A DNA stretch of 64,000 nucleotides from an uncultured Rhodospirillaceae bacterium (GCA_964458415.1 CAYWIT010000015.1:3192-67191), one strand, 5' to 3'; positions 43,390-56,477 are shown, counted from the stretch's first letter. The notes: a model not told the origin generated them from the sequence alone. A program made the numbers and translations.

Positions 43390-43454
43390 GGGAAATGGGG
43401 AATGAGGGTATAAAAAACGCGGCATCCGAAGGAAATCCGCGTGGTGTCTACATT

Positions 43455-43513
43455 TGCTCATTTACAATTCTTGAGCATGAATAAATCATGCCAGAAATGA
43501 TCCCGGCCGTCAA
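43455..43513 (-). promoter_or_regulatory. Putative promoter of the virion cluster with overlapping inverted repeats
   Basis: Minus strand TTGACG (43513-43508)-N17-CATGAT (43490-43485); GCATGA-N5-TCATGC (43475-43491) and TGCTCA-N11-TGAGCA (43455-43477). Confidence 0.5.
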
Positions 43514-43555: not shown

Positions 43556-44083
43556 CTACTGCGCCTGTTTCAGGGCCTCTTCCATTTTTTCTGCTGCTGG
43601 TTCTTTTGTCGCGGCGTTCTCCGGCGCGGTGCCTTCTGCCGTGCCTTCTGCCGTGTCATGGGCCGTGCCGGCAGGGGCAGGGGCAGCTGCGGGAGTTTTC
43701 GCTTCTTGTTTGGCGGCCCTCTTCCCCTTGGCGTCCTTCATCCGTTGGATTTTTATCAGGCGGTCATGACACAGGGTATAAGCATCATAGGCATACATGT
43801 AACTGGCACAGGGGTCTGTGATTTTCTGCGTGCTGTCATTCGTTGCGGGCAATGGGGCGGCTGCAGCGGGGGCGGTTACAGCGGGGGCGGCTGCAGGCGG
43901 ATTTTCGACTGGGTTTTGCGGTGTAGGGGTTTTTTCTCCGCCGCTATATCCGGAATAACCGGCGGCGCTTTGGGATTGACCCGGGCCACCGTAATTCTGG
44001 GCGGGGGCCGCCGCAGACAGTGAAATTGCCAGCAGGCAGCAAAGAACCGGAAAAATAACGCGCACGTCCATTAAGGCCTCCAT
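43556..44083 (-). CDS. Secreted Pro/Ala-rich hypothetical protein
   Basis: Signal peptide; low-complexity arms around a small two-Cys helical core (DPCASY...TLCHDR). Confidence 0.7.
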   Translation of the reverse strand: MEALMDVRVIFPVLCCLLAISLSAAAPAQNYGGPGQSQSAAGYSGYSGGEKTPTPQNPVENPPAAAPAVTAPAAAAPLPATNDSTQKITDPCASYMYAYDAYTLCHDRLIKIQRMKDAKGKRAAKQEAKTPAAAPAPAGTAHDTAEGTAEGTAPENAATKEPAAEKMEEALKQAQ

Positions 44084-44134: not shown

Positions 44135-44650
44135 TTAATGATTGTAAGCGGATGAATTCAAAGCGGGTTTCCTCCCTGAAGGGGGAGCTGGCGCAGGGGC
44201 GGGCGGTGCCGCGGCGGCTGTTTCTTTATCCGGTACGGCAGCTTTTTCACCCTGCGGCTTTTGCGGGGAGAATCCGGTTTCCCGGGTTTTATTCTGGACG
44301 CGTAAAAAATTGCGGGGACCTTCCGCGACGGGCGCGCCTTGCCCGTCCGTCTGTCCGTTTTCGCCGGTTTTTGCGCTGCGCTGCTTTTGTTCCTGCTGCC
44401 GCAGGCGTTGCTGACATTCCTGATAAGGCTTGTCAAAGTGGAGCCGGATTTCTTCCGCTGAATCGGGGGGGAGTTTTTTCAGGCAACCCTCGACCGAGGT
44501 GACAACCAGACTGCCGCTGCCGGTAGCTTCTTCGGCGGGCAACGGGATTATCTGGGCGTTTTCCGTTTCGGTACCGACAGCGCTTCCCGTCTGAAAAATC
44601 AGAATGATCGCTATAAGAGCCGGCAGATATCGTGTTTTATCGCGGTGCAT
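44135..44650 (-). CDS. Secreted hypothetical protein
   Basis: Signal peptide; two-Cys core (EGCL...YQECQQR); Pro/Ala-rich tail; start 1 nt from the upstream ankyrin stop. Confidence 0.7.
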   Translation of the reverse strand: MHRDKTRYLPALIAIILIFQTGSAVGTETENAQIIPLPAEEATGSGSLVVTSVEGCLKKLPPDSAEEIRLHFDKPYQECQQRLRQQEQKQRSAKTGENGQTDGQGAPVAEGPRNFLRVQNKTRETGFSPQKPQGEKAAVPDKETAAAAPPAPAPAPPSGRKPALNSSAYNH

Positions 44651-44651
44651 G

Positions 44652-46946
44652 TTATCCCATGCGCGGGGGTTTGAGGTTTTTACGCGCGGCCGGGCTGGTC
44701 CCTTGTCCGCCCAGCTTTTGCAGGGCCTCGATCATGATGGCGGCGCTGTCCTGCTGGTTGTTTTTCATCGCGGCATGCAGGGGCGTTTCGCCGGCTTTAT
44801 TGGTTATAGACAGGGGGGCCGCCTTTTTGTTGACAAGATAATCAACGACCATTTTGCGGCCGTTTTGCGCCGCGATGTGTAACGGGGTATCGCCATTGTT
44901 GTCTTTTGCATTGATGTCGGCCCCTGCCGCGATCAACAGGGAGAGGATATGCGGGTCCTCGCGCGTGGCGGCATAGTGCAGGAGAGTCCAGTTGTTGTGG
45001 TCGCGGAATTGATCCGGATGCATCTTTTGATGTTTCATATGGTTGATCAGGGTATGGGCAAGCCCGCCATGATCATAAAGGATGGCAAGGTGGATGGGAA
45101 AAAGGCCGTGTTTTCCGGGCAGCGCCGGATTGGCGCCCAGCTCGAGCAGCTTTTCCACCGGCATCTGCAGGCCCTTGCGGGCGGCGATATGCAGGGGGGT
45201 TTCCCCCTCGTTTTGCGACAGGGCGTTCCAGTCGATCTGGGCGGGGGAAAGCTTTTCTGCAAAAACGTCCAGCAGGCGGGTGCTGGCGGCATCGGCGATG
45301 TGATGCACGGCCGCCCAGCCGTCTTCGTCATGAACCCAGGGGTCGGCGCCGCGTTGCAGCAGGAGGGCGGCGGCGTCCGGTTTCTCGCGGCGGCAGGCGT
45401 TGATCAGCGCCGTCCGGCCTTTGTTATCCTGCGCGTCAATATCGAAGGGGGCCAGCGCCAGAAGGTCCCCGATCAGATTTTCCGAACCGTTGCGTGCCGC
45501 GTGATGCAGGGCGTTCCGGCCATAGCGGTCCTTTTTCAGGATATCGGCGCCGGCCTTGTGGAGAAGGGTGACAGCGGCGCGTTCGCCGGCGGTGGCGGCG
45601 GCCAGCAGGGGCGTAAGCCCTGCGGGGGTTCTGTCCGGCTCGTCAATTCTGGCGTTATACCGGATCAGCAGCAGCATGGCGTCCTTGTAGCCGCGGAAAG
45701 CCGCCAGATGCAGTGGGGCGTATTTTGTTTCCAGCGCGGGAGAGATATCGGGACTGGCGCCGCGCAGCAGCATATGGGCGATCAGTTCCGGTTTGTCGTC
45801 ATAGCTATAGCTGTAATGATCCATGGTGATGTCAAGGGGACGCTGGCCGAATTCGTTGAGCGCGTTCGGATTGGCGCCGACATCAAGGAGAGATTTCGCC
45901 TTGCCTGTTTCATTGCGGCCGCAGGCCTCGTGCAGGGCGGTCTGTCCGCTGCCGTCAACGGCGTTCAGGTCCATGCCGGCGGCATAGAGCGTGAGCAGGA
46001 CTTCATCGTAGTTTTTATTATTGATGATATGCGCCAGCGGCACCTTGTTGTCGGTGCTTTGCGGGCTTTTTTCAATGTCGATGCCCAGCTTGATCAGGCG
46101 GCGGATCATGCCGAGCGTGCCGTTTTCCGCCGCAATAAAAAGACCGTGCCGGTTTTTATTGTCGCGGCTGTTGATGTCGCTACCGGCCTGAACCAGCATT
46201 TCGGCAATGTCCGGATGGTTGAAATTGATGGCGGAGAGGAGCGGTGTAAATCCCTCGTGATAGGTTTTGTGAATGTTCAGGCTGGTTTTTACTTCCGGTA
46301 TTTCCAGCAGGATCTCGACGCCTTTGGTAAATCCCGCTTCGGCAGCAATGTGCAGCGGTGTTCTCAGCTCGTCGGTCCGCAGCAGCGGTTGCGCTCCCCT
46401 TGCCAGCAACAGGATCAGGGCATCTTCGTTTTTCAGCTGGGCGGCGAGGTGCAGCGCCGTTTTTCCATTCCAGTCCGCCTGATCGATATCAACGCCGAGA
46501 TTGACAAGATAGGGGATCAGGTCATTGCGGCTTTTTTCGATGGCGACATGAAGCGCTGTGCGCTTGTTGTCGGGGTGCGATTCCGGCCTTGCGCCGAGAC
46601 TTTGCAGATAGTCGAGAAACCCGATATCCGCCCCTTCCTGCAGCGCCCATTCAAAAGGCGAGAGCCCGTCGCCGTCTCTGGTTCGGAAGGTCGCGTTTTT
46701 TTCCAGCAGGGTTTCGATGGCACGGGTATCGCGGGCGCTGATGGCCGTATACAACGGTGTCTGGCCGTTATAGTCGGGCTGGTTCGGGTTGGCGCCGATT
46801 CGCAGCAGTTTCTGGAGGCCGTCAAAATCGCCTTTCAGCAGGGCGAGATGCAAAGCGGTATGTCCGTTTTGATCGAGCGGAGCATTGATCCCCTTGCCGG
46901 TGTTGCGGCGGGGCTTGGGGTCAAAGTCAAAATCATCGTAAGACAT
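44652..46946 (-). CDS. Large ankyrin-repeat protein (about 20 repeats)
   Basis: Many G.T.LH.A repeats throughout; ends ARKNLKPPRMG. Confidence 0.93.
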   Translation of the reverse strand: MSYDDFDFDPKPRRNTGKGINAPLDQNGHTALHLALLKGDFDGLQKLLRIGANPNQPDYNGQTPLYTAISARDTRAIETLLEKNATFRTRDGDGLSPFEWALQEGADIGFLDYLQSLGARPESHPDNKRTALHVAIEKSRNDLIPYLVNLGVDIDQADWNGKTALHLAAQLKNEDALILLLARGAQPLLRTDELRTPLHIAAEAGFTKGVEILLEIPEVKTSLNIHKTYHEGFTPLLSAINFNHPDIAEMLVQAGSDINSRDNKNRHGLFIAAENGTLGMIRRLIKLGIDIEKSPQSTDNKVPLAHIINNKNYDEVLLTLYAAGMDLNAVDGSGQTALHEACGRNETGKAKSLLDVGANPNALNEFGQRPLDITMDHYSYSYDDKPELIAHMLLRGASPDISPALETKYAPLHLAAFRGYKDAMLLLIRYNARIDEPDRTPAGLTPLLAAATAGERAAVTLLHKAGADILKKDRYGRNALHHAARNGSENLIGDLLALAPFDIDAQDNKGRTALINACRREKPDAAALLLQRGADPWVHDEDGWAAVHHIADAASTRLLDVFAEKLSPAQIDWNALSQNEGETPLHIAARKGLQMPVEKLLELGANPALPGKHGLFPIHLAILYDHGGLAHTLINHMKHQKMHPDQFRDHNNWTLLHYAATREDPHILSLLIAAGADINAKDNNGDTPLHIAAQNGRKMVVDYLVNKKAAPLSITNKAGETPLHAAMKNNQQDSAAIMIEALQKLGGQGTSPAARKNLKPPRMG

Positions 46947-47037
46947 GTGCTGCCTTTTCAAAAAATATCGCGGATTTTTTGCCAGAGGCAAAAGTTTACC
47001 GGCTGTATTTTTAATGCGCTGTAATCAGAAGGTTATT

Positions 47038-48252
47038 TTAGGGATGTCGGCTGGGAACGTCTATAGTCTTCTTCCCGGCTATTTTGAGCTGTTGCAACGC
47101 AGCAAGCTCCGCCAGCTGCAGCCGGGCGGTTATGGAATTTTGCGGGCCGTGAATTTTGCCGGAGAGCTGGTAGGCGGTTTCACCGGCTTTTGATTGCAAA
47201 AGGGGATCGGCCTTGAAACGCAACAGCAGATCGACAACATCAAGCTGGCCATGAGTGACGGCCATGTGCAGCGGCGTGGAAGATTGTCCCGGCTGGTTTG
47301 GATCGGCGCCGTGTTCCAGCAGATAAGCAATGGCCTTCAGTGGGAGCCGTTCGATAAGGGCACAGTGCAGCGGAAACCAGTGATAGCTGTTTGGCAGATT
47401 GATAATGTCCGGCCTCCGCGCCAGCAGCAGGTCTGTTAAAGCATACTCCTCCAGCCGGAGCGCTGCCAGCAAAGGTGTTTTTCCGGGGTTGCCCGGGCTG
47501 AAGGCGGGATCGGCGTGATATTCGAGCAGCAACGCGGTAGAGGCGGTGTTCCGTCCTTCAATGGCCGAGACAAGCGGCGAGGAAAAGTTGTTCTGGCCCG
47601 GAACACCGCTATCCGGATTGGCTCCGGCGTCCAGCAGCAGTTTCATCAGTTCGGTATTCCTGCGCAAGGTGGCATGGTGAAGCGCTGAAAAAGGACTGTT
47701 TTTGGCGCGCAGGTTCGGATCTGCGCCGGCTTCCAGCAGCGCTGCCACGCAAGAGGCAGAACCACAGGCGATATAATGGAAGAGCAAGGGCGTGTGCATA
47801 TCATCCATGCCGTCCGGATCGGCGCCGGCTTCCAGCAGGGCGGAAACAATGGCTTCCTCGACGGGGTCGGGCAAGGGGCTGCTCTCGGGAACATAAATGC
47901 GGTTTTGCGCATAGGCACGCACACAGGCAAGAAGCGAGATTCCGGTTTCTGTCTCGTATTTTCCGACATCGGCGCCGGCTCGCAGCAGGGCATTGATAAC
48001 CGGAAGATCCTGATTTTTCACGGCGGCGGACAGCGGAGAATCGTTGCCGGCATCGCGACGATTGATCAGGGCGCCTGCGGCAACCAGCTGCGCCACCTGT
48101 CCGGCGGCAAGCTGTTCGCGCCGGACAAGATAATGAAAGGCCGTGGTGTTTTCACGGGTGCAAACGGCATTGGGGTTTTCAAGCGCTGTTGCAAAAGAAA
48201 CCGTCTGAAAAATATTTTTAAGGGAAGGGACGGACATGAACGGCCCCTTCAA
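47038..48252 (-). CDS. Ankyrin-repeat protein
   Basis: SPLSAAV, SALHHAT, SPLVSAI, TPLHMAV repeats. Confidence 0.9.
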   Translation of the reverse strand: MKGPFMSVPSLKNIFQTVSFATALENPNAVCTRENTTAFHYLVRREQLAAGQVAQLVAAGALINRRDAGNDSPLSAAVKNQDLPVINALLRAGADVGKYETETGISLLACVRAYAQNRIYVPESSPLPDPVEEAIVSALLEAGADPDGMDDMHTPLLFHYIACGSASCVAALLEAGADPNLRAKNSPFSALHHATLRRNTELMKLLLDAGANPDSGVPGQNNFSSPLVSAIEGRNTASTALLLEYHADPAFSPGNPGKTPLLAALRLEEYALTDLLLARRPDIINLPNSYHWFPLHCALIERLPLKAIAYLLEHGADPNQPGQSSTPLHMAVTHGQLDVVDLLLRFKADPLLQSKAGETAYQLSGKIHGPQNSITARLQLAELAALQQLKIAGKKTIDVPSRHP

Positions 48253-48740
48253 AGTCTGCTGATATAGGCGAGCGGCTTTTTGATCCGGATATTGCGTTGC
48301 AGGGAGGCATCAAAGCTATGTGGTTTTTTCTGGGCCGCCTCATAATGCGCCCGTCGTAAGACGCGGGACATTTTTTCGTTATGGCAGTCCTCTGCAATCA
48401 TCAGGGCGTTTTTTTCATCGTCACGGGTCAGATTGATATCGCTGCCCGCGGCGATTATTCTTTCTGCGGTGTTAAAGCTGTCGCGGCATTTGGCCAGCAG
48501 CATCAAAGGCGTCTCCTGCCGGTTGTTGCGGGCGTTAATATCAGCTTCAAGGCCCAGTAGCGTTGCGACGGTGAGGGCAAAGCCTTCGCCGGCAGCGAGA
48601 TGGAGAGCGCTGTTGCCTTGCGGGTCGCGGGCGTTCAGATCGGCGCCATCGCTAAAAAAGCCGAGCAGGGATTCAAAATCCCCGCGCTTTGCGGCGGCGA
48701 GAAAACTGGCATTCAGAGAGGTCTTTTTTGTCTTTGTCAT
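48249..48740 (-). CDS. Small ankyrin-repeat protein with basic C-terminal motif
   Basis: GNSALHLAAGEG, ETPLMLLA; ends FDASLQRNIRIKKPLAYISRL. Confidence 0.85.
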   Translation of the reverse strand: MTKTKKTSLNASFLAAAKRGDFESLLGFFSDGADLNARDPQGNSALHLAAGEGFALTVATLLGLEADINARNNRQETPLMLLAKCRDSFNTAERIIAAGSDINLTRDDEKNALMIAEDCHNEKMSRVLRRAHYEAAQKKPHSFDASLQRNIRIKKPLAYISRL

Positions 48741-48937
48741 TTTTGACCAAGGCCTTCTTTTCTCAGAATCTGTCTTTTCATCGGATAAAACACTTATAAT
48801 TGCATTTACCGGACAGGGCAATTATAATTATGTTATGATATTATGTCTATGAATATTAATATATACTTGATTTATAATGATATTTTTGAATATCATAGAT
48901 CTGGCGAAAGCAAATAACGGGCAAGGAGGAAACAGCC

Positions 48938-49618
48938 ATGCGCTTGAAAGAACGGGGGAATGCGATGTTTCTTGTCCTGATCGGGGTGGCTTTATTTGCG
49001 GCGCTGATTTTTGCCATTGCCGGTGATCGTGGGGATTTGCAGGGCACGCTGGGAGAAGAAGAAGCCCGGCTGGTTGCCAGCGAAATGATTCAATATGGCG
49101 ATTCGCTGCGGCTGATAACGGCAAAGATGCTGCGGGTGGGCGGCGTGGCGGATACGAATACGGCGGGTCATGGCATCCTGTTCTCCGCCCAGAGCGCCCA
49201 TGCCGATTACGGTGTGGCAGGGGCGCAGCCGACAACGGAAATCTTCCATGCTTCCGGCGGGGGGGCGTCTTATCAGGCCCCGCCAGCGGGGGCCTGTCCG
49301 GCGGCTTGCGCCTACGAGTTTACCGGACAGCTGAATATCACGGGGGTCGAGACGGCATCGAAATATGAACTGGCGATGATTCTTTCCGGGGTTGATTCCA
49401 AAGTATGCCAGTATATCAACAGCATTCAGCAGCGGGGCTGGTCCACTATTCCTGTCGGAGCGCTGATAACGCTGGAGCGTTTTGACGGCACAAATTACGG
49501 CGATACCGGCGGCGGCAACACGCTTACGCTGGCGGCTGGTTTTACGGGGTTGCGTTCATTTTGTTACGAGATGATGTCCGGCGCCAATGTTTTCGTGCAT
49601 GTGCTGCACGGGCGCTGA
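48938..49618 (+). CDS. PilX/minor-pilin-like protein (G|N-hydrophobic N-terminus, no E5)
   Basis: MRLKERG|NAMFLVLIGVALFAALIFAIA; Cys pairs in globular domain; paralog at 59715-60431. Confidence 0.6.
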   Translation: MRLKERGNAMFLVLIGVALFAALIFAIAGDRGDLQGTLGEEEARLVASEMIQYGDSLRLITAKMLRVGGVADTNTAGHGILFSAQSAHADYGVAGAQPTTEIFHASGGGASYQAPPAGACPAACAYEFTGQLNITGVETASKYELAMILSGVDSKVCQYINSIQQRGWSTIPVGALITLERFDGTNYGDTGGGNTLTLAAGFTGLRSFCYEMMSGANVFVHVLHGR

Positions 49619-49620
49619 GT

Positions 49621-51285
49621 CTAATCAAAAAAATCGTTGTTGTGGCGGCGCGGCGTGGACCGGCGCTTGGGCTGGTAACGAATGCCCTTTTTCTGCAGGT
49701 GTTTCTTGAACTGCTCGGAGATCCCCGTCTGTGACAGCGAAAAGGCGAAATCGTAAGCGGTCATGCCCCGGCTGTCCCTGATCAGGGGATCGGCATTATG
49801 TGCGAGCAAAGTGTTGACGATCGTCTCGGGATGATAGCCGTTGAGAATGGCAAGATGCAGCGGGGTCCGGCCCAGATGGTCCTGCGCATCGGGGGAAGCG
49901 CCGTGGCGCAGGAGAATTTCGGTCTCCACCTCAAGCCCCCTTTCCGCCGCGATATGGAGGGCTGTTGACTTTTCTTCTCCGACGACAGCATTCGGGTCGG
50001 CTTTGTTTTTCAACAGGGCCGTGATCAGGGCGAAGCGCCGCTGGCGCAAAGCCAGATGGAGCGGAGCAAGGCCGTTGGCGGCGGCGATATTGGGATCGGC
50101 GCCCTGTTCAAGGAAGACGAGCGCCGGAACGATATTGTGTTCAAGCGCGGCGGTCATCAGCGGGGTATAGCCGGTTTTGTCCTGAACATTCAGTTCGGCG
50201 CCAGCCGCGATCAGGTCGGCAATGGTGCGCTCCTGAATCTGCGCGGTGCAGAAATGCAATACCGCCCGCCCCTGACCGTCCAGCGCCTTGGTATCGACGC
50301 CGGCTGCCAGAAGGATTTTGACAATCGCGTCATTTCCGCGATAGGCCGCCGTCATCAAGGGAGTCCGGTCCGCGCCATCCCGGGCCTCGGGATCGGCGCC
50401 ATTTTCCAGCAGCATGGTCGCCATCAGCGCGTTGTTATTGCGGATGGCGAGATGCAAAAGCGGCAGCGGGGATGGCGGGTGCGATTTCGCAGTGTCGCCG
50501 CCGCGGGAAATCAGCCGCTGCGCCAGCGCGATATTGTCCGTTTGCACGGCGTCATGAATGGCGGTCATCCCGTTTTTATCGGTGAGATTGATCAGGGCGC
50601 CGTGTTCGGCCATTTTCAGGACGAGGGCATCCTTCTTTTTCGCGGCGGCGAGATGCAGGGGCGAGCGGCCTTCGGTGGTGACGGCATTGACCAGTGCCAC
50701 GGCCTCGGTGCCGAGGAGGTATTCGGCCACGTCGGTATTTCTCTGCAAGGCCGCGAAATGCAGGGCGGTGGCGCCGTTCCGGTCGGCAGAATAGATGTGG
50801 ACCCGCTCGAAGAGGAAGGCTTCGACGATATCCAGCGTGTTGTTCTCGCAGGCGAGCAGAAAGGGCGTCATGCCGCGGCCATCGGGCAGATCGGGGTTGT
50901 CCACGGCCTGCAAAAGGCGCCTGACGATGGCGATGCCGCTTTGTGTGGCGGCCAGATGCAACGGCGACTGGCCCGTCTGGTCGGCTTTTTCTGCGCCAGC
51001 CCCGGCAGAGAGAAGAAGATCTATAAGCGTTATATCGTTCAGCAGAACGGCGTGATGCAGCGCGGTTTTTCCCGTCTTGTCGGTTTTATCAGGATCAGCC
51101 CCGGATTTTAGAAGTTTGACCAGCAAATCGGCATCGCGTCCCTGCACGGCGGCGATAAGTTTGGTCTGGCCGGTGTCGGCGTTGACGATGCCATCGGGGG
51201 CGGCTTCGTTGAACTGATTCCTTGCGCTGGCAGGGTTTTCGGAGCTTTGTTTGGCCCGACGCTTCGCATTCCGGTTAAATTGCAT
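49621..51285 (-). CDS. Ankyrin-repeat protein (about 14 repeats)
   Basis: GKTALHHAV, GQSPLHLAA, GATALHFAA, RTPLMTAA, etc. Confidence 0.93.
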   Translation of the reverse strand: MQFNRNAKRRAKQSSENPASARNQFNEAAPDGIVNADTGQTKLIAAVQGRDADLLVKLLKSGADPDKTDKTGKTALHHAVLLNDITLIDLLLSAGAGAEKADQTGQSPLHLAATQSGIAIVRRLLQAVDNPDLPDGRGMTPFLLACENNTLDIVEAFLFERVHIYSADRNGATALHFAALQRNTDVAEYLLGTEAVALVNAVTTEGRSPLHLAAAKKKDALVLKMAEHGALINLTDKNGMTAIHDAVQTDNIALAQRLISRGGDTAKSHPPSPLPLLHLAIRNNNALMATMLLENGADPEARDGADRTPLMTAAYRGNDAIVKILLAAGVDTKALDGQGRAVLHFCTAQIQERTIADLIAAGAELNVQDKTGYTPLMTAALEHNIVPALVFLEQGADPNIAAANGLAPLHLALRQRRFALITALLKNKADPNAVVGEEKSTALHIAAERGLEVETEILLRHGASPDAQDHLGRTPLHLAILNGYHPETIVNTLLAHNADPLIRDSRGMTAYDFAFSLSQTGISEQFKKHLQKKGIRYQPKRRSTPRRHNNDFFD

Positions 51286-51324
51286 GGGCCCTCCTGTCCT
51301 TGATTCAGACCATGTGTTTGTCGG

Positions 51325-52392
51325 TTACGGTCTGTGCTTGCGGTAGTTTTTCTCAAAGAATTTTTGCTCGGCCAGAGCTTCGGCTTCCTTGAGCAGGGCG
51401 TAATGGTTGACCATATGAGAATGGTCGGCAAGGCGCGCGGCGGTCCGGTTAAAGGCATCTGTCAACAGCGGATCGGCGCCGGAATTGAGCAATAGGCGGA
51501 TGACTTCAAGGCCGCCGTTTTTTGTAGCGGCCCGCATCAGCGCGGTTTCGCCATTTCCCGGCAGACGCCGGATATTGGTTTCGGCGCCGGCGTCGAGCAG
51601 CATGCGAACCAATATCAAGTTTCCGTCACCGGCAGCAAGCATGAGCGGCGTCAGGCCCGCCTCTGTCACGGCGTTGACGTCTGCGCCGGCTTGCAGCAGT
51701 TGCTGGACGGTGGTGGAACGGCCGCTCTGTACGGCGTAATGCAGGGCGGTCATACCGCTGCCGGACTGCGGCTGGTCCAGTTCGGCGCCGGCTTCCAGCA
51801 GGCGGGCGATAATGATCCCCTGATTTTGCTGGGCCGCCAGTTGCAGGGGCGTCAGGCGTTCGGGGCCGGATTCCATATCCAGAAAAGCGCCGGCGGCGAT
51901 CAACGGGCGGACGCATTCGCTGCGGGACATTTTTATCGCGATGTGGAGGCAGGACAGACCTTCGAATTTTCCTTCCGGCGTGACGCCGATCTGGTTGACG
52001 AAGATATCGGCATGGTTTTCCAGCAGGGTTTTGACGACTTTGTCCTGTCCGGTGTAGACCGCCAGAAAAAGGGCGTTGAAGCGGCGCTGGCTGTCGATGT
52101 CGAAAAACATCTCGCTGCCGAGATCGAGAAGGCATTTCACCAGACGGGAATTGCCGGAGGTGATGGCAACGCCGAGGGGCGTCATGTCCTTTTTATTGCG
52201 GATATCGATATTGGCGCCCAGCTCCAGCACGGCTTCGCGTACAAGTTCCGGCGGCGCGTCGGTGCGGCACAGTTCGTGCAAATAGGTATTGCCGTCCATA
52301 TAGAGTGCGGCGTTGACTTGCGCGGCGGCGGGCTTCGACAAACCAAAATATCTTTTTTCTGGGAGCACGGCGCCTCCTTCGCGGGTCTGCAA
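51325..52392 (-). CDS. Ankyrin-repeat protein
   Basis: GNTYLHELC, MTPLGVAI, GMTALHYAV, LTPLMLAA, ETALMRAA. Confidence 0.92.
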   Translation of the reverse strand: MQTREGGAVLPEKRYFGLSKPAAAQVNAALYMDGNTYLHELCRTDAPPELVREAVLELGANIDIRNKKDMTPLGVAITSGNSRLVKCLLDLGSEMFFDIDSQRRFNALFLAVYTGQDKVVKTLLENHADIFVNQIGVTPEGKFEGLSCLHIAIKMSRSECVRPLIAAGAFLDMESGPERLTPLQLAAQQNQGIIIARLLEAGAELDQPQSGSGMTALHYAVQSGRSTTVQQLLQAGADVNAVTEAGLTPLMLAAGDGNLILVRMLLDAGAETNIRRLPGNGETALMRAATKNGGLEVIRLLLNSGADPLLTDAFNRTAARLADHSHMVNHYALLKEAEALAEQKFFEKNYRKHRP

Positions 52393-52455
52393 TCAAAGTC
52401 TTGCGTTAGAGGCATTATTACCCATCTGCCTCTTCATTCAAAGCCGTTTTTGGTA

Positions 52456-53898
52456 TTAAAAGGTCCAATGACCGTTGTCAGAAGGTCTGGCCTTGGCGAT
52501 GTGCTGCATTTTTTTGCTTTGCCGGACATGAAGGGCTTTTTCCAAAAGACCGATAATCTCTTCCGTTCCCTTTGTTCTGCGGGCATGGGAAAGGGCGGAG
52601 CTGTTTGCGGCATCGCACAATGCCGGATTGGCGTTCCGCTGGAGAAGCAGCGCCACGCCCTGTGTATTTCCGGCGCAGACGGCGGTGATCAGGGGCGTTT
52701 TCGCATCTTGTGTATTACGGGCGTTGACATGGGCGCCTTGCTGCAGCAGTTGCGTCAGGATGTCATGATCTTTCCGGCGCAAGGCATGAAAAAGAGGCGT
52801 ATCGCCGTTTTTGTCATGGATCTCCAGCTGGAGCGGATATTGCAGCAGCGCCTGCAGGGATTTTTTGCCGTCGGCGGCCTGAATGGCGGCATGTAACGGC
52901 GCCATCCCTGAAAGGGGGGAGAGGATATCCGGATCGGCACCGGCTGCGAGCAGGCAGGTAATGATTGCCGCGCGGGCGGCTTCGTCCCGGATTTCGGAAG
53001 CGGTGATGGCGGTCATCAGCGGCGTCTCTTTTCCGGCGGCGGGTTTGTTCAGGTCGGCGCCGGCCTGAACAAGCAGGCGGACGATTTCCGGATCGGCGCC
53101 AAGAATGGCTTTCTCCAGCGGGGTTTCGCCGGTATCATCGGGCTTGTTGACCAGCGCCCCTTTTGCGATCATTTTGCCGACGGCGGCTGTTTCACCGCGC
53201 TCGATGGCCAGATGAAAGGCATTGCGTTTGCTTTCGTCCGTATCGGCATAAAAATCATTTAGACCGTCGATGACGCCGGGGTGGTCCAGCAACATGGCGG
53301 TGATTTCCGGCTGCCGCCTTGAAATGGCGATCAGGAGCGGGGTCGCGCCGTTGTTCGTGCGTTCATTGGCATCGGCGCCGGCGGCAAGCAAAGCGGCCAC
53401 GGCGGGCGCCTTGCCCTTTTCCGTGGCGCGGTGGAGCAGCGTCCAGCCATTAATGTGGTGTCCGGGGATAAAGCCGCCCAGCCGCGCCAGCAGGATAACT
53501 GCATTATTGCTGCCGTAATTGACGGCGTCTTCCAGCGGGGTGCGGTCGGGATTCCCGTCCTTGCCGCGCGTCGGCGTGGCGCCGGATTCGATCAGCAGGG
53601 TAATCATTTCCGCCAGATTGCCGCGCGCCGCGATATGCAGGGCGGTATTCCCGTTTTTATCATAGGCGTTCGGATCGACACCTTCCGCCAGCAGGGCGCT
53701 CACATCCTGCAACCTGTTGTTCTTTACGGCTTTGAAAAAGGCGAGGGTCGCCGGAGAGGGGTCTTTTTCCGGGGTATCGGGTTTTGTGCCGAGGTTGCGG
53801 TTGCTTGTCCGGTTGAAAGCGCCGGTAATATTATCAACAGCTTTTTCAAAGCCGTTGCGGTGGTCTTCTTTCGGTGTGTTGTCGTCATTCAGGCTCAT
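52456..53898 (-). CDS. Ankyrin-repeat protein
   Basis: GNTALHIAA, GWTLLHRA, GATPLLIA, GETPLEKA, GDTPLFHA. Confidence 0.93.
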   Translation of the reverse strand: MSLNDDNTPKEDHRNGFEKAVDNITGAFNRTSNRNLGTKPDTPEKDPSPATLAFFKAVKNNRLQDVSALLAEGVDPNAYDKNGNTALHIAARGNLAEMITLLIESGATPTRGKDGNPDRTPLEDAVNYGSNNAVILLARLGGFIPGHHINGWTLLHRATEKGKAPAVAALLAAGADANERTNNGATPLLIAISRRQPEITAMLLDHPGVIDGLNDFYADTDESKRNAFHLAIERGETAAVGKMIAKGALVNKPDDTGETPLEKAILGADPEIVRLLVQAGADLNKPAAGKETPLMTAITASEIRDEAARAAIITCLLAAGADPDILSPLSGMAPLHAAIQAADGKKSLQALLQYPLQLEIHDKNGDTPLFHALRRKDHDILTQLLQQGAHVNARNTQDAKTPLITAVCAGNTQGVALLLQRNANPALCDAANSSALSHARRTKGTEEIIGLLEKALHVRQSKKMQHIAKARPSDNGHWTF

Positions 53899-54027
53899 GG
53901 AGCCGTGCCCTTTCCCTCGGGGAAAAACTGAAAACCAGCGCTCTTTTCATATAAGGGCATAAGTAGCATAACAACGGGCAAGCCGCAAGGCTGCCATTAT
54001 TTTACATATTTAATAATTGCGGTAATA

Positions 54028-54573
54028 TTACTGTGGTGCTGGTGGTTTATGCCGCTGCAAGGAAGCGGTGTTTTGACCGTTGGCTTGTTTCATCGCCATA
54101 TATTCTTTCAGTTTTTCTGCTGCAGCGGTGTTTTCCTCCCAGAGCTGCATGTAATTCCGCGGGCTCCAGCCATGGCCATCGGTTTTGTCGCCATCGGCGC
54201 CAGCCTTGATCAGCAGCGCGATAATCTCTTTGCGGCAGCGCAATCCGCCCGATAAAGCGGCGGCATGCAGCGGAGTCCAGCCCTTGCCGTTATCGCTGTT
54301 GACATCGGCGCCAGCCTTGATCAGGGCTTCCACAATATCCGTTTCGCCCCAATAGGCAGCGATGTGCAGCGCAGTCAGGCCGCGGGCGTCTCGGGTCTCT
54401 GGATCGGCGCCGTTTTTCAGCAGGCGTTTGACTTCGTTCAGGCTGCCCTGCCGCACGGCTTTGAGAAGGCGTGTTTCACCGTGGGCATCCTTGTTGTTGA
54501 TGCCGCGCCCCGTCAGCGTATTAAAAAGATTGTTTAAACCTGGCATCCCAAACCCCATCTCAGAATAATGCAA
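54028..54573 (-). CDS. Small ankyrin-repeat protein (start probably at MPGLNN)
   Basis: GETRLLKAV, GLTALHIAAYWG, GWTPLHAAA. Confidence 0.9.
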   Translation of the reverse strand: MHYSEMGFGMPGLNNLFNTLTGRGINNKDAHGETRLLKAVRQGSLNEVKRLLKNGADPETRDARGLTALHIAAYWGETDIVEALIKAGADVNSDNGKGWTPLHAAALSGGLRCRKEIIALLIKAGADGDKTDGHGWSPRNYMQLWEENTAAAEKLKEYMAMKQANGQNTASLQRHKPPAPQ

Positions 54574-54719
54574 AGTTGAAATATCGGCAAACGCACAGCT
54601 TGTATTCTGCGCTCCAGAATAGGGGCGGGGGCTTTAAAAAAGGATTAATCCGGCAGGATATGGGGGCAATAAAGGGGCGGGCATACCAGCGCTGGAAAAA
54701 ATAAAAGTTTTTATCGCAA

Positions 54720-55454
54720 TTAGAATCTGTATTTTTCTTTTCGATATTTATATTTCAGCGCGATTTTTTTCAATTTCAGATACTCTTTCTTATAGGGTTT
54801 CGTGCTGTAGGTGGAAAAATATGTTCGCAGTTCGGTGGTGCCGGAGGTGCTGGTGGCGATTGTTTTATGCAGGGAAATTTCTTTATGGCGTCGGGCAAAA
54901 GCGCGGTTATTTAAAAAAACCTGCTCCGTCTTTTTATTTTTTGCAAATTGAAAGGCGGTTTCCCCGGTTCTTGTTTTCAGGTCAAAATCAGCGCCGTGCT
55001 GCAATAAAACAGCTGCGCTTTGTGCCGCATCGCGCCAGGCTGCATAATGCAGGGCGGTAAAGCCGGATTTGCTTTTCCGGTCCAGCAGCACAAGCGGTTG
55101 CAGACATATCAGCGTGGTGGCCGTGGCATTGTTGCGGGCGGCGGCCACCATTAACGGAGATATGCCATAGCTGTTCTCGAAATCGGGCAAAACGTCGTTG
55201 CGCGCGAGCAGGGATTTTAATTCTGCATGTTCCCCGAGGTAGATCGCCGCCATGATTTTTACCGCAGGGCTTTTGTCGTCAAGGCCCGCGCAGAAAAAAG
55301 GCTTTACCGCTTTCCACGGCAGCTGCGCGACCAGCGCGTTTATTTCAAAACGCAGATGTTCCTGAACGGAAAGCGGCCGTCGAACGGAGGGGGAAGAGAA
55401 AGAGCGCGCCATAAATTTTGCTTTGCGAGTCGATATTGTACCGGCCCGCATCAT
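54720..55454 (-). CDS. Ankyrin-repeat protein with very basic K/Y-rich C-terminus
   Basis: GISPLMVAA, GFTALHYAA, GETAFQFA; tail KKEYLKLKKIALKYKYRKEKYRF. Confidence 0.8.
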   Translation of the reverse strand: MMRAGTISTRKAKFMARSFSSPSVRRPLSVQEHLRFEINALVAQLPWKAVKPFFCAGLDDKSPAVKIMAAIYLGEHAELKSLLARNDVLPDFENSYGISPLMVAAARNNATATTLICLQPLVLLDRKSKSGFTALHYAAWRDAAQSAAVLLQHGADFDLKTRTGETAFQFAKNKKTEQVFLNNRAFARRHKEISLHKTIATSTSGTTELRTYFSTYSTKPYKKEYLKLKKIALKYKYRKEKYRF

Positions 55455-55505: not shown

Positions 55506-56477
55506 TTATTTATCTGCCGATTCCGTTAATGCGCTCAGGGTTTTTGCTTCAAACAGCTTTTCGTTATCCGCCATAAAAGCCTCAAGGCTCTGGTGCGGGG
55601 CGATACTGGCCAGATAAGGTTTCAGGGTCGTGGGGTATTCCGCCATATCGTTGAAATCCTGCGCATCGACCAGAGACATGAGGAAGATGCCGGCCAGCAG
55701 TCCGCCGGAAAAACAACCGGCCCAGAGCAGGCGGCGTTTTTGCGTCATCGGGGTCGCCAGAGAGAGTGACCCATAAACCAGAAAAACCATCAGGAGCAGG
55801 TTGGCGGTATAATTTGCCGCCGACGCGATGCTGCTTTTGGTGCTCAGAAAATCAATGCCGGACTGGACAACATCAAACAGGGTTGAAAGCAGGATGTAGA
55901 AGCTGGCCAGCGCGAGATGGCCCATAAAAAACGATTTGTTGCGCATCAGGCGGCTGACACCGGCCCAGACGCCGGCCCAAACCAGCACAACGGCAAAAAC
56001 CGCGGCGGCCGTCAGGGTTGCTGTTCGCAGGGCGTTCTCTTCAAAGATCTCCAGCCAGCTCCAGCCGGTGACAGCGGCGAGCGCCGCCGCAAGAAGGAGA
56101 TAGGCGGCGGCAGGGCGGGCCAAGGTCAGAAAGAACGGTGTGGATTTCACGAGCGGCAGAGGGGCCGCGACGGGGTGATGCGGGGCGAAAAAACGAATTT
56201 CCGTCTGGCCGATGCGGATGACGTCACCGGATTGCAAGGCATGTTTTTCCACAAGGCGCCGCTGCGTGTTGATTGTGATGTCTGAATCTGCGAGGTTGTA
56301 AACTTTCCAGCCGTCAGCGTCATGCTCAATGCGCAGATGCGCGGCGGAGATGTGCGGATCGTTCAGGATAATATCATTATGATAGCCGCGCCCGATGGAG
56401 AGGGGAAAGTTCTCCACGGCTTTGTAGGCGACGGACCGGTCGTCGGCGGGGCTCAGGATTTCAAGAACCAGTTTCAC
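55506..56477 (-). CDS. FHA-domain multi-pass membrane protein
   Basis: SIGRGYHNDIILNDPHISAAH (FHA), L.SGDVIRIG; about 5 TM helices. Confidence 0.85.
   Translation of the reverse strand: MKLVLEILSPADDRSVAYKAVENFPLSIGRGYHNDIILNDPHISAAHLRIEHDADGWKVYNLADSDITINTQRRLVEKHALQSGDVIRIGQTEIRFFAPHHPVAAPLPLVKSTPFFLTLARPAAAYLLLAAALAAVTGWSWLEIFEENALRTATLTAAAVFAVVLVWAGVWAGVSRLMRNKSFFMGHLALASFYILLSTLFDVVQSGIDFLSTKSSIASAANYTANLLLMVFLVYGSLSLATPMTQKRRLLWAGCFSGGLLAGIFLMSLVDAQDFNDMAEYPTTLKPYLASIAPHQSLEAFMADNEKLFEAKTLSALTESADK

What the first reader, a model, noticed from the sequence alone, without database searches (positions are those of the whole stretch)
44652..55454. Array of eight co-oriented, divergent ankyrin genes abutting the GTA-like cluster (12 in window; cluster flanked on both sides)
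Seen: eight minus-strand ankyrin genes (about 160-770 aa), none with a signal peptide or obvious catalytic domain, lie immediately upstream of and co-oriented with the virion operon. Others lie at 15050, 21965 (directly beyond the lysis end), 58091 and 61342. Established: ankyrin expansions mark host-associated bacteria; phage WO carries an ankyrin-rich eukaryotic association module; Bdellovibrio Bd3460 is an ankyrin self-protection protein. Inference: an effector or immunity repertoire whose linkage to a GTA-like element could promote its spread or reflect co-regulation.
Basis: partly seen in the sequence, partly recalled or inferred. Interest (0 to 1): 0.7.

Follow-up and report, generated by a model that had tools for sequence, protein, structure and literature searches.

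The report
Ancient ankyrin genes bracketing GTA-like cluster
Eight real ankyrin-repeat genes sit just upstream of a phage-derived, gene-transfer-agent-like particle locus, and this pairing has been inherited together across a whole clade of uncultured Micavibrio-like bacteria, although what the ankyrin proteins do remains untested.

Summary
Eight minus-strand ORFs at 44652-55454 are ankyrin-repeat proteins, and four more lie elsewhere in the window. None has a Sec-type N-terminus or a catalytic domain.

The array is not a recent expansion. Paralogues share only 25-31% identity. ANK1, ANK4, ANK5 and ANK6 have 1:1 orthologues (36-44% identity) in the same order, 5' of the TerS/TerL end of the same head-tail-lysis cluster, in about 17 related loci. 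Those loci come from uncultured Micavibrio-like Alphaproteobacteria. The ANK gene beyond the lysis end is conserved too.

ANK1 and TerL distances co-vary (r=0.80). No integrase was seen in the flanks examined. This points to vertical co-inheritance with a domesticated RcGTA-like element, not spread by it.

The proximal unit is ANK3-ANK2-ANK1 plus two small secreted proteins. It has its own promoter-like site and ends at a conserved intrinsic terminator in the TerS leader.

Some relatives have the cluster without ANK1. One relative keeps both ANK flanks around a deleted cluster. The ANK genes therefore look accessory rather than structural.

All the ANK proteins carry basic, proline-rich C-terminal tails, a possible shared export or targeting signal. 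Function is inferred only, and no RNA data exist.

The parts
54720..55454 (-). ANK8 (244 aa, >=2 repeats, very basic C-tail). Distal array member with no clear orthologue seen in relatives.
   Evidence: Pfam Ank_2 E=1.3e-10; tails; repeats
54028..54573 (-). ANK7 (181 aa, 3 repeats; C-terminus ...RHKPPAPQ)
   Evidence: Pfam Ank_2 E=1e-40
52456..53898 (-). ANK6 (480 aa, >=10 repeats). Orthologues at 36-44% in L009, L011, L012, L014, L015 and L143. A population recombination breakpoint lies at 53,500 inside the gene.
51325..52392 (-). ANK5 (355 aa, >=7 repeats). Orthologues at 36-43% with a conserved tail ...SYKK(Y/F)RP.
49621..51285 (-). ANK4 (554 aa, >=13 repeats). Orthologues at 38-41% (340-390 bits versus about 140 for the next window paralogue).
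48938..49618 (+). Non-ANK gene interrupting the array: 226 aa with an N-terminal TM helix, paralogue of 59715-60431. Convergent with ANK4 and divergent from ANK3. An orthologue (50%) lies divergent from ANK1 in L142.
48821..48849 (-). Best sigma70-like promoter match in the region (TAGACA-17-TATAAT, 11/12), in an AT-rich gap upstream of ANK3. Proposed start of the ANK3-ANK2-ANK1-hyp171-hyp175 unit.
   Evidence: sequence; consensus match only
48249..48740 (-). ANK3 (163 aa from ATG; 1-3 repeats). Orthologue in L005 (34-35%).
47038..48237 (-). ANK2 (399 aa from ATG; >=9 repeats). Orthologues in L005 and L143 (31-36%).
44652..46946 (-). ANK1 (764 aa, >=16 detectable repeats, room for about 21). 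Belongs to a narrow orthologue family (about 66 clusters, 754-797 aa, 34-45% identity). It lies immediately 5' of the cluster in about 17 loci. Conserved N-terminal FDFD motif and C-terminal K-P-P-x-P tail.
44135..44650 (-). hyp171: small signal-peptide, Pro/Ala-rich protein with a Cys pair. Its ATG lies 1 nt after the ANK1 stop. In relatives the starts overlap by 1-4 nt (L008, L011, L014, L017, L035, L141, L142).
43556..44083 (-). hyp175: second small signal-peptide protein, with a conserved C..Y.LC.DRL core. Present in most relatives.
43485..43513 (-). Weak promoter-like site (TTGACG-17-CATGAT, 9/12) upstream of the hairpin
   Evidence: consensus match only
43412..43441 (-). Intrinsic-terminator-like hairpin (CGCGGAUUUCCUUCGGAUGCCGCG) plus U6, 22 nt upstream of the TerS-like start. 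Conserved in at least 16 related loci, including loci without ANK1.
   Evidence: A1, R1; 7 of 9 pairs show compensatory changes; non-training hits in L141, L063, L066, L068, L069
43099..43389 (-). TerS-like small basic protein (start taken at M25). Family motif R(D/E)KINV.ALI.ALEQHVLGEKEMTATQVSAALALLKK.LPD.
   Evidence: assignment rests on position before TerL only; no Pfam or PHROG hit
23117..43139 (-). RcGTA-like head-tail-lysis cluster. In order: TerL, portal, variable fibre-like genes, S78 protease, HK97 MCP, connector, head completion, tail completion, tail tube, TAC, short TMP-like (162 aa), gpM/L-like, NlpC/P60, TipJ-like (1364 aa), fibre, small TM protein, endolysin.
33015..33740 (+). 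Sel1-repeat protein with a signal peptide, on the opposite strand inside the cluster. Conserved at this position in more than 12 relatives.
21965..22570 (+). ANK beyond the lysis end, on the opposite strand. Orthologues in the same position in L148 (63.5%), L149 (64%) and L141 (56%).
55506..57988 (-). Co-oriented upstream neighbours: a trypsin-like protease (56474-57988) and an FHA plus multi-TM protein (55506-56477), overlapping by 4 nt. Not seen within the 10 kb upstream flanks of relatives.
15050..15517 (-). Scattered ANK gene among housekeeping genes
58091..59521 (+). Scattered ANK gene (476 aa)
61342..62136 (-). Scattered ANK gene (264 aa)

Best explanation
The array is an old, vertically inherited set of distinct ankyrin genes. 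It brackets a domesticated, RcGTA-like phage-derived particle locus in a clade of uncultured Micavibrio-related Alphaproteobacteria.

Shown. Each main member (ANK1, 4, 5, 6; also 2 and 3 in a subset) is its own orthologue group, kept in the same order at the 5' (TerS/TerL) end of the cluster. A further ANK gene is kept at the 3' (lysis) end. ANK1 co-diverges with TerL. The proteins have no Sec signal and no catalytic domain. They share basic, Pro-rich C-terminal tails.

Inferred from sequence. ANK3-ANK2-ANK1 and two small secreted proteins form one tightly packed unit, because the ANK1 stop abuts the next start. The unit has its own promoter. It ends at a conserved intrinsic terminator that sits in the leader of the TerS-TerL operon. 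The ANK genes would therefore be expressed independently, and any transcription entering the particle genes from upstream has to read through that terminator.

Inferred function. The ANK proteins are cytoplasmic or non-Sec-exported protein-binding adaptors or effectors. They act as an accessory ('moron'- or EAM-like) module fixed at the borders of the element, not as parts needed to build particles. The basic tail is the best candidate for a shared export or targeting signal. The likely targets are another cell's proteins (a grazer's or a prey's) or the bacterium's own partners.
For: ANK identity and absence of a signal peptide.

Old paralogy versus clear orthology. ANK1 orthologues score 450-560 bits, against 100-140 bits for the next-best window ANK.

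Synteny from the TerL side.

Synteny from the ANK1 side, which is unbiased by TerL: one search shows about 66 orthologue clusters followed by a sharp score drop. Searches show ANK1 followed by hyp171-like, TerS-like and TerL in all three contexts examined.

3' flank ANK orthologues.

Co-divergence: NJ trees and Mantel r=0.80, p~5e-4.

A domesticated rather than mobile element. No integrase, repressor or replication genes occur in the window or in relatives' flanks. No att repeat lies at the nearby tRNA-Leu. Depth is flat and there are no excision joints in five metagenomes. Genes are intact across more than 25 loci at 62-82% identity. The cluster's divergence is similar to that of housekeeping Dxs, which is 75-77% in the same contigs. 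Gene order and families are RcGTA-like. The TMP-like gene is short at 162 aa.

Operon anatomy.

Conserved terminator.

Separability of ANK1 and the cluster. Intact clusters occur without ANK1 in L003, L016 and L038. ANK1 is intact beside a degraded cluster in L142. Both ANK flanks are intact around a TerL'-endolysin' deletion scar in L141.

Basic C-tails: net +3.1 versus +0.14 in non-ANK window proteins (p=5e-5). In relatives the values are +3.5 (n=50) versus 0.04 (n=195).
Against: No expression, localisation or interaction data exist. No RNA run holds this sequence.

Gene order in this clade is conserved for unrelated housekeeping genes as well. Retained adjacency alone does not prove a functional link.

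The L141 deletion looks recent, because the fragments are still open reading frames. Survival of ANK1 there is weak evidence for particle-independent selection.

Promoters are consensus matches only.

The terminator could equally be a plain insulator or an antitermination site.

The cultured relative M. aeruginosavorus is reported to have only type I and type II secretion (PMC3189940). A type-IV-like reading of the basic tails therefore has no known machinery behind it.

GTA activity of the cluster is not demonstrated.
Confidence: 0.55

Rival explanations
1. The ANK proteins, at least ANK1 with hyp171 and hyp175, are functional parts of the particle system. They could be regulators, assembly chaperones or scaffolds, or cargo/ejection proteins co-produced with the virion genes. 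In the cargo case the basic tails would target them to DNA or to the capsid interior.
For: The genes are co-oriented and immediately 5' of TerS/TerL. The position is conserved in about 17 loci. ANK1 is translationally coupled to the next gene. ANK1 length is tightly conserved at 754-797 aa. ANK1 and TerL co-diverge. The tails are basic. There is no room for a promoter between the hairpin and TerS, so particle-gene transcription must start upstream.
Against: Intact clusters lack ANK1 in L003, L016 and L038. ANK1 persists beside degraded or deleted clusters. A conserved terminator separates the units. No PHROG or Pfam virion-related family hits any of these genes. Known GTAs (RcGTA, BaGTA, Caulobacter) use no ankyrin component; this last point is from background knowledge.
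Confidence: 0.15
2. The array is an immunity or self-protection repertoire. One version is Bd3460-like protection against the bacterium's own cell-wall or predatory enzymes. Another is ANK-type immunity proteins of polymorphic toxin systems. The ANK gene next to the endolysin and NlpC/P60 would guard against the cluster's own lytic enzymes.
For: The clade is labelled Micavibrio-like, i.e. bacterial predators. ANK genes flank a locus that encodes an endolysin and an NlpC/P60 peptidase. Bd3460 sets a precedent (PMC4686830). A periplasmic Sel1 protein is conserved inside the cluster.
Against: None of the 12 ANK proteins has a signal peptide, so none can meet periplasmic enzymes. No toxin or effector gene is adjacent. 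PADLOC gives only generic ANK-repeat matches. Large 500-760 aa solenoids are unlike known small immunity proteins.
Confidence: 0.1
3. The whole block is an active or recently active temperate phage carrying ANK 'morons', analogous to the phage WO eukaryotic association module. On this view the array spreads horizontally with the phage.
For: IMG/VR lists related contigs that include ANK1 and ANK4 as viral (L062, L067). A tRNA-Leu lies 2 kb beyond the lysis end. Strains that are 3-8% divergent in the flanks share a near-identical block of about 37 kb (16.2-53.5 kb) covering the cluster and ANK1-5.
Against: No integrase, excisionase, repressor or replication genes occur in the window or in relatives' flanks. 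No att repeat was found. The near-identical block ends inside host genes (Dxs and ANK6). In one strain (X2) it extends to 4.5 kb, as expected for ordinary homologous recombination. Depth is flat and there are no excision joints. Trees are congruent with vertical descent. No isolated phage is close.
Confidence: 0.07
4. The adjacency is purely historical. A phage integrated next to an ANK-rich chromosomal region in the clade's ancestor, and slow genome rearrangement has kept the two together without any regulatory or functional relation.
For: Unrelated housekeeping synteny (thiolase-PBP1-IspH-SIS-XseB-IspA-Dxs) is equally conserved in the same genomes. ANK genes are scattered elsewhere in these genomes too. 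A terminator insulates the two units. ANK1 and the cluster can each be lost separately.
Against: The cluster's distance to Dxs changed from 24 kb to about 110 kb in relatives, while the ANK1-TerS junction stayed intact. Both borders of the cluster carry conserved ANK genes. Orientation, tight spacing and the absence of a promoter-sized gap before TerS suggest at least transcriptional interplay.
Confidence: 0.2

Closest known systems
Phage WO eukaryotic association module (EAM) of Wolbachia
   Same: Both are clusters of ankyrin (and other eukaryote-like repeat) genes attached to the edge of a tailed-phage structural gene set in an alphaproteobacterium, and both are conserved as a module across relatives (PMC9203015).
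   Different: WO is an active temperate phage with an integrase, in an obligate intracellular host. Its EAM also carries latrotoxin-CTD, PRANC, OTU and similar domains. Here the element has no integrase or replication genes. The host occurs in wastewater, soil and sediment metagenomes. Only ANK and Sel1 repeats are present, and inheritance looks vertical.
RcGTA-type gene transfer agents of Alphaproteobacteria
   Same: The gene order matches: TerS-like, TerL, portal, S78 protease, HK97 MCP, connector, head completion, tail completion, tube, TAC, short TMP, distal tail, NlpC/P60, large Phage-tail_3 protein. Several Pfam and TIGRFAM families are shared. There is no lysogeny module. The cluster is conserved clade-wide.
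   Different: The cluster lies outside the clade in which large RcGTA-like clusters were reported; Micavibrio was scored as having only small clusters (PMC5721377). The distal tail is lambda-like (DUF1833, TipJ/FNIII-A_GpJ). Extra fibre-like genes follow the portal. An internal opposite-strand Sel1 gene and ANK genes on both borders have not been described for any GTA in the literature searched. Packaging of host DNA is untested.
Sponge 'Ankyphage' ANKp
   Same: An ankyrin protein encoded next to terminase, portal and capsid genes, proposed to act on eukaryotic cells (10.1101/608950).
   Different: ANKp is small (about 190 aa), has an N-terminal signal peptide and sits on free phage genomes. 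The proteins here are 163-764 aa, lack signal peptides, occur as multi-gene arrays and are chromosomally fixed.
Bdellovibrio Bd3460 ankyrin self-protection protein
   Same: An ankyrin protein in a bacterial predator, encoded next to a cell-wall hydrolase (PMC4686830). ANK_21965 lies next to the endolysin end.
   Different: Bd3460 acts in the periplasm on DD-endopeptidases. None of the window ANKs has an export signal.
Type IV-secreted ankyrin effectors (e.g. Anaplasma AnkA, Legionella/Coxiella Ank proteins)
   Same: They have no Sec signal, carry large ANK solenoids, and have a positively charged extreme C-terminus resembling VirB/D4-type translocation signals (background knowledge; tails measured).
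   Different: No T4SS is visible in the window. The cultured relative is reported to lack one (PMC3189940). The host is not known to be eukaryote-associated. No sequence orthology exists beyond generic ANK repeats.

Membership tests
Ankyrin-repeat proteins (Pfam clan Ank) | Tandem ~33-residue repeats matching the Ank/Ank_2 profiles above the gathering score | tested here: met
   All 12 proteins exceed the cut-offs. A self-built repeat HMM finds 1-16 repeats per protein.
RcGTA-type GTA | Head-tail structural cluster with RcGTA gene order and homologous families | tested here: met
   TerL, portal, Peptidase_S78, HK97 MCP, Phage_connect_1/TIGR02215, Phage_HCP, Tail_completion_gp17, Phage_tail_2, Phage_TAC_11 (weak), NLPC_P60 and Phage-tail_3 are present in that order. 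The g12/g13-specific DUF2460 and DUF2163 families and GTA_TIM were not detected.
RcGTA-type GTA | No integrase, replication, lysogeny or regulatory phage genes; not excisable | tested here: met
   None in the window or in relatives' flanks. No att repeat. Flat depth and no excision joints.
RcGTA-type GTA | Vertical inheritance and purifying selection across a host clade | tested here: met
   Intact orthologous clusters occur in more than 25 loci at 62-82% identity. Divergence is comparable to Dxs from the same contigs. dN/dS was not computed.
RcGTA-type GTA | Particles package random host DNA in pieces too small to carry the cluster | not testable with these tools
   Requires particle purification and sequencing. 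The short TMP-like gene (162 aa) says nothing about capsid size.
RcGTA-type GTA | Control by CtrA/GafA-type host regulators | tested here: inconclusive
   A single TTAA-N7-TTAA box at 54634-54648; 0.54 are expected by chance. No GafA-like gene was sought.
Phage WO-type eukaryotic association module | Eukaryote-like gene module carried within an active temperate phage genome (integrase, att sites) | tested here: not met
   No integrase or att site.
Phage WO-type eukaryotic association module | Multiple eukaryote-like domains adjacent to phage structural genes | tested here: met
   ANK genes lie on both borders and a Sel1 gene lies inside the cluster. Only these two repeat types are present.
Ankyphage ANKp / Bd3460-type exported ANK proteins | N-terminal signal peptide (secreted or periplasmic) | tested here: not met
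   Maximum hydrophobic 12-mer <=1.2 (1.8 only in the doubtful TTG extension of ANK3), versus 2.4-3.6 for true exported neighbours. SignalP itself was not available.
T4SS-translocated ANK effectors | Positively charged C-terminal translocation signal | tested here: inconclusive
   The tails are significantly basic and Pro-rich, but no translocation assay or signal model was applied.
T4SS-translocated ANK effectors | A T4SS encoded in the same genome | not testable with these tools
   Only 64 kb of the genome is available. M. aeruginosavorus is reported to lack a T3SS and a T4SS (PMC3189940).
Known anti-phage defence systems (PADLOC) | Match to a system-specific protein set | tested here: not met
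   Only generic ANK-repeat regions of PDC-M72A, 'Ankyrin' and MzaA matched. No partner genes were found.

The most novel reading that the evidence does not exclude
The ANK proteins may be a payload of the particle system. In one version, long and easily unfolded ANK solenoids carry basic C-terminal tails that load them with DNA into GTA-like capsids for delivery into recipient cells. In the other version they are released en masse when the particle-producing subpopulation lyses. Either way, a domesticated phage would serve as a protein-effector delivery or release device, gated by read-through of the conserved terminator.
Probability: 0.06. Interest if true: 0.9.

Novelty: new variant of a known kind. 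Interest (0 to 1): 0.55.

Why it matters
Ankyrin modules attached to phage structural genes are so far known from obligate symbionts (phage WO) and sponge phages, and they are read there as tools for dealing with eukaryotic hosts.

Here a comparable module is fixed on both borders of a domesticated, GTA-like element. It occurs in a free-living or predatory alphaproteobacterial clade that lies outside the lineage where large RcGTA-like clusters were recognised.

If the linkage is functional, it would point to an unrecognised accessory layer of GTA-like elements, such as regulation by read-through or effector release on lysis. It would also give a defined, conserved gene set to test: ANK1, hyp171, hyp175 and the terminator.

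If the linkage is only historical, the locus still documents an RcGTA-like cluster in Micavibrio-related bacteria. It also documents an ancient, orthologue-structured ANK repertoire with a shared basic C-terminal tail, which may mark an unknown export route.

Tried and rejected
- **Transcription evidence.** No RNA run holds the sequence. Three metatranscriptomes from a study whose metagenome contains the strain gave zero coverage.
- **att sites.** No repeat of 12 nt or more of the tRNA-Leu region occurs elsewhere in the window.
- **CtrA boxes.** One full box was found, which is not above chance.
- **Known defence systems.** PADLOC gave only generic ANK hits.
- **Function of hyp171, hyp175, TerS-like, the 226-aa and 238-aa proteins.** No Pfam hit even at E<=1, and no PHROG hit.
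- **Exact look-up of the window's TerL in the contig index.** Not on record.
- **Closest isolated phage.** None is closer than 46% over the ATPase half of TerL.
- **Conserved chromosomal position relative to Dxs.** Rejected. The cluster is 24 kb from Dxs here but about 107-117 kb away in two relatives. A third contig with the same length as L014's contig turned out to be a different contig.
- **'Block transfer of cluster plus array between strains'.** Considered after finding a near-identical block of about 37 kb in strains that diverge elsewhere. Rejected as specific evidence. The block ends inside host genes. Its left end differs between strains. The right breakpoint is shared by all four metagenomes, so it is most simply a single recombination event in the window's lineage.
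- **Greedy longest-ORF gene calling.** It mis-called antisense ORFs in several loci, for example the ANK_21965 orthologue in L148. It was replaced by tblastn.
- **Structure prediction.** Not run. ANK solenoids and low-complexity secreted proteins were judged unlikely to give discriminating folds.

Full report

Yes. The eight minus-strand ORFs between 44652 and 55454 all match the Pfam ankyrin families far above the gathering scores (Ank_2 E-values from 1e-10 to 2e-95). After choosing plausible ATG starts they encode proteins of 163-764 aa. A self-built repeat HMM detects at least 16, 9, 1, 13, 7, 10, 3 and 2 repeats in ANK1 to ANK8.

No other domain reaches a Pfam cut-off. None of the twelve proteins has a hydrophobic N-terminal segment. 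The maximum 12-residue Kyte-Doolittle mean is <=1.2, or 1.8 only in ANK3's doubtful TTG-start extension. The signal-peptide proteins next door score 2.4-3.6.

Two details need correcting. First, the array is split by an opposite-strand, non-ANK gene (48938-49618, 226 aa, N-terminal TM helix). That gene is convergent with ANK4 and divergent from ANK3 across an AT-rich gap. The gap holds the best sigma70-like match of the region (TAGACA-17-TATAAT). Second, ANK1 does not touch the virion genes. Two small secreted proteins, a hairpin and a TerS-like gene lie between them.

**2. The neighbouring cluster**

Positions 23117-43389 (minus strand) encode, in order:
- a TerS-like protein, TerL and portal;
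- two variable fibre-like proteins;
- an S78 protease, an HK97 major capsid protein, a connector and a head-completion protein;
- a tail-completion protein, tail tube and tail assembly chaperone ('GTA-gp10' family, weak hit);
- a very short tape-measure-like protein (162 aa);
- gpM- and gpL-like proteins, an NlpC/P60 peptidase and a 1364-aa TipJ/Phage-tail_3 protein;
- a fibre, a small TM protein and an endolysin.

This is the RcGTA gene order, and several families are shared with RcGTA.

The rest of the window carries ordinary alphaproteobacterial housekeeping genes: PBP1, thiolase, HemY, HemD-Mic60-like, IspH, IspA, Dxs and PmbA. There is no integrase, repressor or replication gene. A tRNA-Leu lies 2 kb beyond the endolysin, but no repeat of it exists elsewhere in the window.

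No isolated phage is close. The best TerL match is 46% over the ATPase half.

**3. Who carries it**

The window sequence is nearly identical to contigs from wastewater, sludge, river, soil and sediment metagenomes.

The nearest TerL relatives (62-70% identity) are MAGs labelled Alphaproteobacteria, Micavibrio sp., Rhodospirillaceae or 'Bdellovibrionales'.

The window's Dxs is 75-80% identical to Dxs proteins from the same large contigs that carry the related clusters. The housekeeping block thiolase-PBP1-IspH-SIS-XseB-IspA-Dxs is syntenic in those genomes. The relatives are therefore genuine genomic relatives, and the cluster has diverged about as much as a housekeeping gene.

**4. Is the array linked to the cluster in relatives?**

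A blastp/tblastn map of 36 related loci was built. It shows the order ANK6-(an extra 434-aa ANK)-ANK5-ANK4-(ANK3-ANK2)-ANK1-hyp171-hyp175-TerS-TerL in L005, L007, L008, L009, L011, L014, L015, L035, L067 and L143. ANK1 alone is visible on the shorter flanks of L001, L004, L010, L017 and L062.

These are true orthologues. ANK1-type proteins score 450-560 bits against ANK1 but only 100-140 bits against the next window ANK. ANK4, ANK5 and ANK6 behave the same way. Window paralogues share only 25-31% identity with one another. The array is therefore old and differentiated, not a recent tandem burst.

An independent search from ANK1 gave the same picture. It found about 66 orthologue clusters of strikingly constant length (754-797 aa, 34-45% identity). 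The score then drops sharply to generic eukaryotic and bacterial ANK proteins. All three ANK1-anchored contexts examined are followed by hyp171-like and TerS-like genes and TerL, intact or as remnants.

ANK1 and TerL trees are broadly congruent. Their pairwise distances correlate with r=0.80 (Mantel p~5e-4).

The ANK gene beyond the lysis end (21965-22570) also has orthologues in the same place and orientation, in L148 (63.5%), L149 (64%) and L141 (56%). L148 carries two more ANK genes further on and no integrase.

Both borders of the cluster are therefore conserved ANK territory.

**5. Separability**

The link is not obligatory. L003, L016 and L038 have intact clusters with 5-10 kb of upstream sequence (about 5 kb in L003). 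They carry no ANK1, hyp171 or hyp175. Host genes such as an ECF sigma factor and a PPTase lie there instead. L013 and L023 keep only a hyp171-like gene.

The converse also occurs:
- L142 has an intact ANK1 next to a cluster that has lost its portal and has a shortened TerL.
- L141 is a clean deletion scar. TerS is followed by a TerL fragment (residues 31-162), which abuts an endolysin fragment (residues 21-132). Intact orthologues of ANK1 and ANK_21965 flank the scar.

The L141 deletion looks recent, so it is weak evidence. Taken together, though, these cases argue that the ANK genes are not needed to maintain the particle genes, and the particle genes are not needed to maintain the ANK genes.

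**6. Transcriptional anatomy (sequence-based inference)**

Within the proximal unit the genes are tightly packed. The ANK1 stop (TAA) is followed after one base by the ATG of hyp171. In L008, L011, L014, L017, L035, L141 and L142 the two genes overlap by 1-4 nt.

Both hyp171 and hyp175 have signal peptides, Pro/Ala-rich low-complexity regions and a short conserved Cys-pair core.

A GC-rich hairpin sits between hyp175 and the TerS-like start: CGCGGAUUUCCUUCGGAUGCCGCG followed by U6, at 43441-43412. It lies 22 nt before the ATG at 43389.

The same hairpin with a U-run, usually preceded by an A-run, lies 5-45 nt upstream of the TerS-like gene in at least 16 loci. These include loci without ANK1 and the L141 scar. 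Seven of its nine pairs show compensatory changes. A covariance model built from 12 copies recovered non-training copies in L141, L063, L066, L068 and L069.

No promoter-sized gap follows the hairpin. Particle-gene transcripts must therefore start upstream of it, either at a weak promoter-like site (43513-43485) or in the ANK operon, and then read through. This resembles a lambdoid PR'-tR' late leader.

It also means the ANK unit is normally insulated from the virion genes. Simple co-transcription is unlikely, but regulated read-through is possible. No RNA data could be found to test this.

**7. A shared tail**

The last 20 residues of the 12 ANK proteins are markedly basic. Their mean net charge is +3.1, against +0.14 for 50 non-ANK window proteins (Mann-Whitney p=5e-5). 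They are also somewhat Pro-rich.

In relatives the contrast is +3.5 (n=50) versus 0.04 (n=195).

Each orthologue group keeps its own version of the tail:
- ANK1: K-P-P-x-P;
- ANK5: SYKK(Y/F)RP;
- ANK4: PKRYN...GG;
- ANK6: PKAPRP.

Some conservation at the extreme end of ANK1 may reflect the overlapping start region of hyp171. The feature nevertheless spans unlinked ANK genes.

From background knowledge, positively charged C-termini are typical of VirB/D4-type translocation signals. However, the cultured relative M. aeruginosavorus is reported to have only type I and type II secretion (PMC3189940), and the window shows no secretion genes.

The tail is recorded here as a candidate shared export or targeting signal, nothing more.

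**8. Population data**

Contigs from four further metagenomes (X2, X3, X6, X7) were laid on the window.

They are 0-1% different between about 16.2 and 53.5 kb (X2: from 4.5 kb). Outside that interval they are 3-8% different. A sharp shared breakpoint lies at 53,500, inside ANK6.

The block ends in host genes, and its left end differs between strains. I therefore read it as ordinary homologous recombination. The window/X1 lineage carries a divergent right-hand segment comprising the ANK6 N-terminus, ANK7, ANK8, FHA-TM and the trypsin-like protease. This is not mobilisation of the element.

Depth is flat across the cluster and its flanks, and no excision joints are seen. The cluster and array are present in every strain.

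**9. Comparison with known systems**

Four known systems come close:
- **Phage WO eukaryotic association module.** It also places an ANK-rich module at the edge of phage structural genes in an alphaproteobacterium (PMC9203015). WO is an active temperate phage of an intracellular symbiont, with many more domain types.
- **Sponge Ankyphage ANKp and Bdellovibrio Bd3460.** Both are small exported ANK proteins (10.1101/608950; PMC4686830). The signal-peptide criterion fails here.
- **RcGTA-type elements.** The cluster itself fits these by order, families, lack of a lysogeny module and clade-wide conservation. Micavibrio was previously scored as having only small clusters of RcGTA homologues (PMC5721377). 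Packaging of host DNA is untested.

Full-text searches for ankyrin with 'gene transfer agent', and for ankyrin or 'gene transfer agent' with Micavibrio, found no description of this arrangement. PADLOC recognises no defence system.

**10. Verdict**

The best-supported reading is an old accessory ANK module co-inherited with a domesticated GTA-like locus. The module is transcriptionally upstream of that locus but insulated from it. It encodes non-Sec protein-binding proteins with a common basic tail.

Whether these proteins are effectors, immunity proteins or regulators remains open. A direct role in building particles is disfavoured by the separability data. Spread by the element is disfavoured by the phylogenies and by the lack of mobility genes.

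I classify this as a new variant of a known kind (phage-associated ankyrin modules and GTA-like elements), of moderate interest.

Noticed in passing
window 33015-33740 (+): A Sel1-repeat protein with a clear signal peptide is encoded on the opposite strand inside the virion cluster, between the head-completion and tail-completion genes. It is conserved at exactly this position in more than 12 relatives (40-48% identity) but absent from L064. It could be a periplasmic self-protection or exclusion factor.
   Followed up: partly
window 43412-43441 (-); L001, L003, L004, L005, L013, L016, L017, L023, L038, L062, L063, L066, L141, L143: A conserved terminator-like hairpin with a U-run (often preceded by an A-run) lies immediately upstream of the TerS-like gene, with compensatory base changes. 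It may be an antitermination or read-through control point for the particle genes.
   Followed up: yes
L003:15848-15895, L012:20723-20770, L016:21125-21169, L018:11174-21, L062:15032-15080, L142:21573-21621, L148:9430-9481; window gap 29701-30237: The same covariance model picks up a second hairpin class (18.5-27.2 bits; E 0.0037-0.64, so only some hits are significant) between the DUF1833 (gpL-like) and NlpC/P60 genes in relatives. The window has an unexplained 536-nt gap at that position but no hit.
   Followed up: no
window 53500 (inside ANK6), and about 16.0-16.3 kb (inside dxs): The strain-level mosaic has a sharp switch from 0% to about 10% divergence at 53,500, shared by four metagenomes. 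ANK7, ANK8, FHA-TM and the trypsin-like gene belong to a divergent haplotype. Smaller divergent patches lie at about 29.1-30.7 kb (NlpC/P60 region) and 32.2-33.0 kb.
   Followed up: partly
window 48938-49618 (+) and 59715-60431 (-): Two paralogous proteins (31% identity over 107 aa) have a pilin-like N-terminal hydrophobic helix, a conserved C..IN motif and no family hit. The first splits the ANK array. Its orthologue lies divergent from ANK1 in L142.
   Followed up: partly
window 38010-40373 (-): A variable insert lies between portal and protease. It comprises two fibre- or spike-like proteins (399 aa with a PTR/virion-structural C-terminus, and 354 aa with no hits). It is absent in L003 and replaced by a protein of about 615 aa in L004, L005 and L143. 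This recalls GTA head spikes.
   Followed up: no
window 55506-57988 (-): A trypsin-like serine protease with an N-terminal TM segment overlaps by 4 nt with an FHA-domain protein carrying several TM helices. The pair is co-oriented with the array and directly upstream of it. The protease domain weakly matches the protease part of PADLOC 'RT-Protease_XI'.
   Followed up: no
window 8766-11087 (-): A single 773-aa ORF combines a HemD (uroporphyrinogen-III synthase) domain, an HTH-like stretch and a C-terminal mitofilin/Mic60-like domain. It sits next to hemY, the alphaproteobacterial Mic60 neighbourhood.
   Followed up: no
L004, L005, L007, L008, L019, L143 (between hyp175-like and TerS-like genes): Several relatives carry an extra opposite-strand ANK gene (257-307 aa) inserted between the secreted-protein genes and TerS. 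The window lacks it.
   Followed up: no
L141:4105-4933: A TerL N-terminal fragment directly abuts an endolysin fragment. This marks a single deletion of about 19 kb covering the whole particle cluster. TerS, the hairpin and both flanking ANK genes are left intact.
   Followed up: yes
window 20984-21068 (+): A tRNA-Leu (CAG) lies 2 kb beyond the lysis end, followed by a DnaQ/RNase D-like 3'-5' exonuclease gene (21112-21723). No att-like repeat was found.
   Followed up: yes
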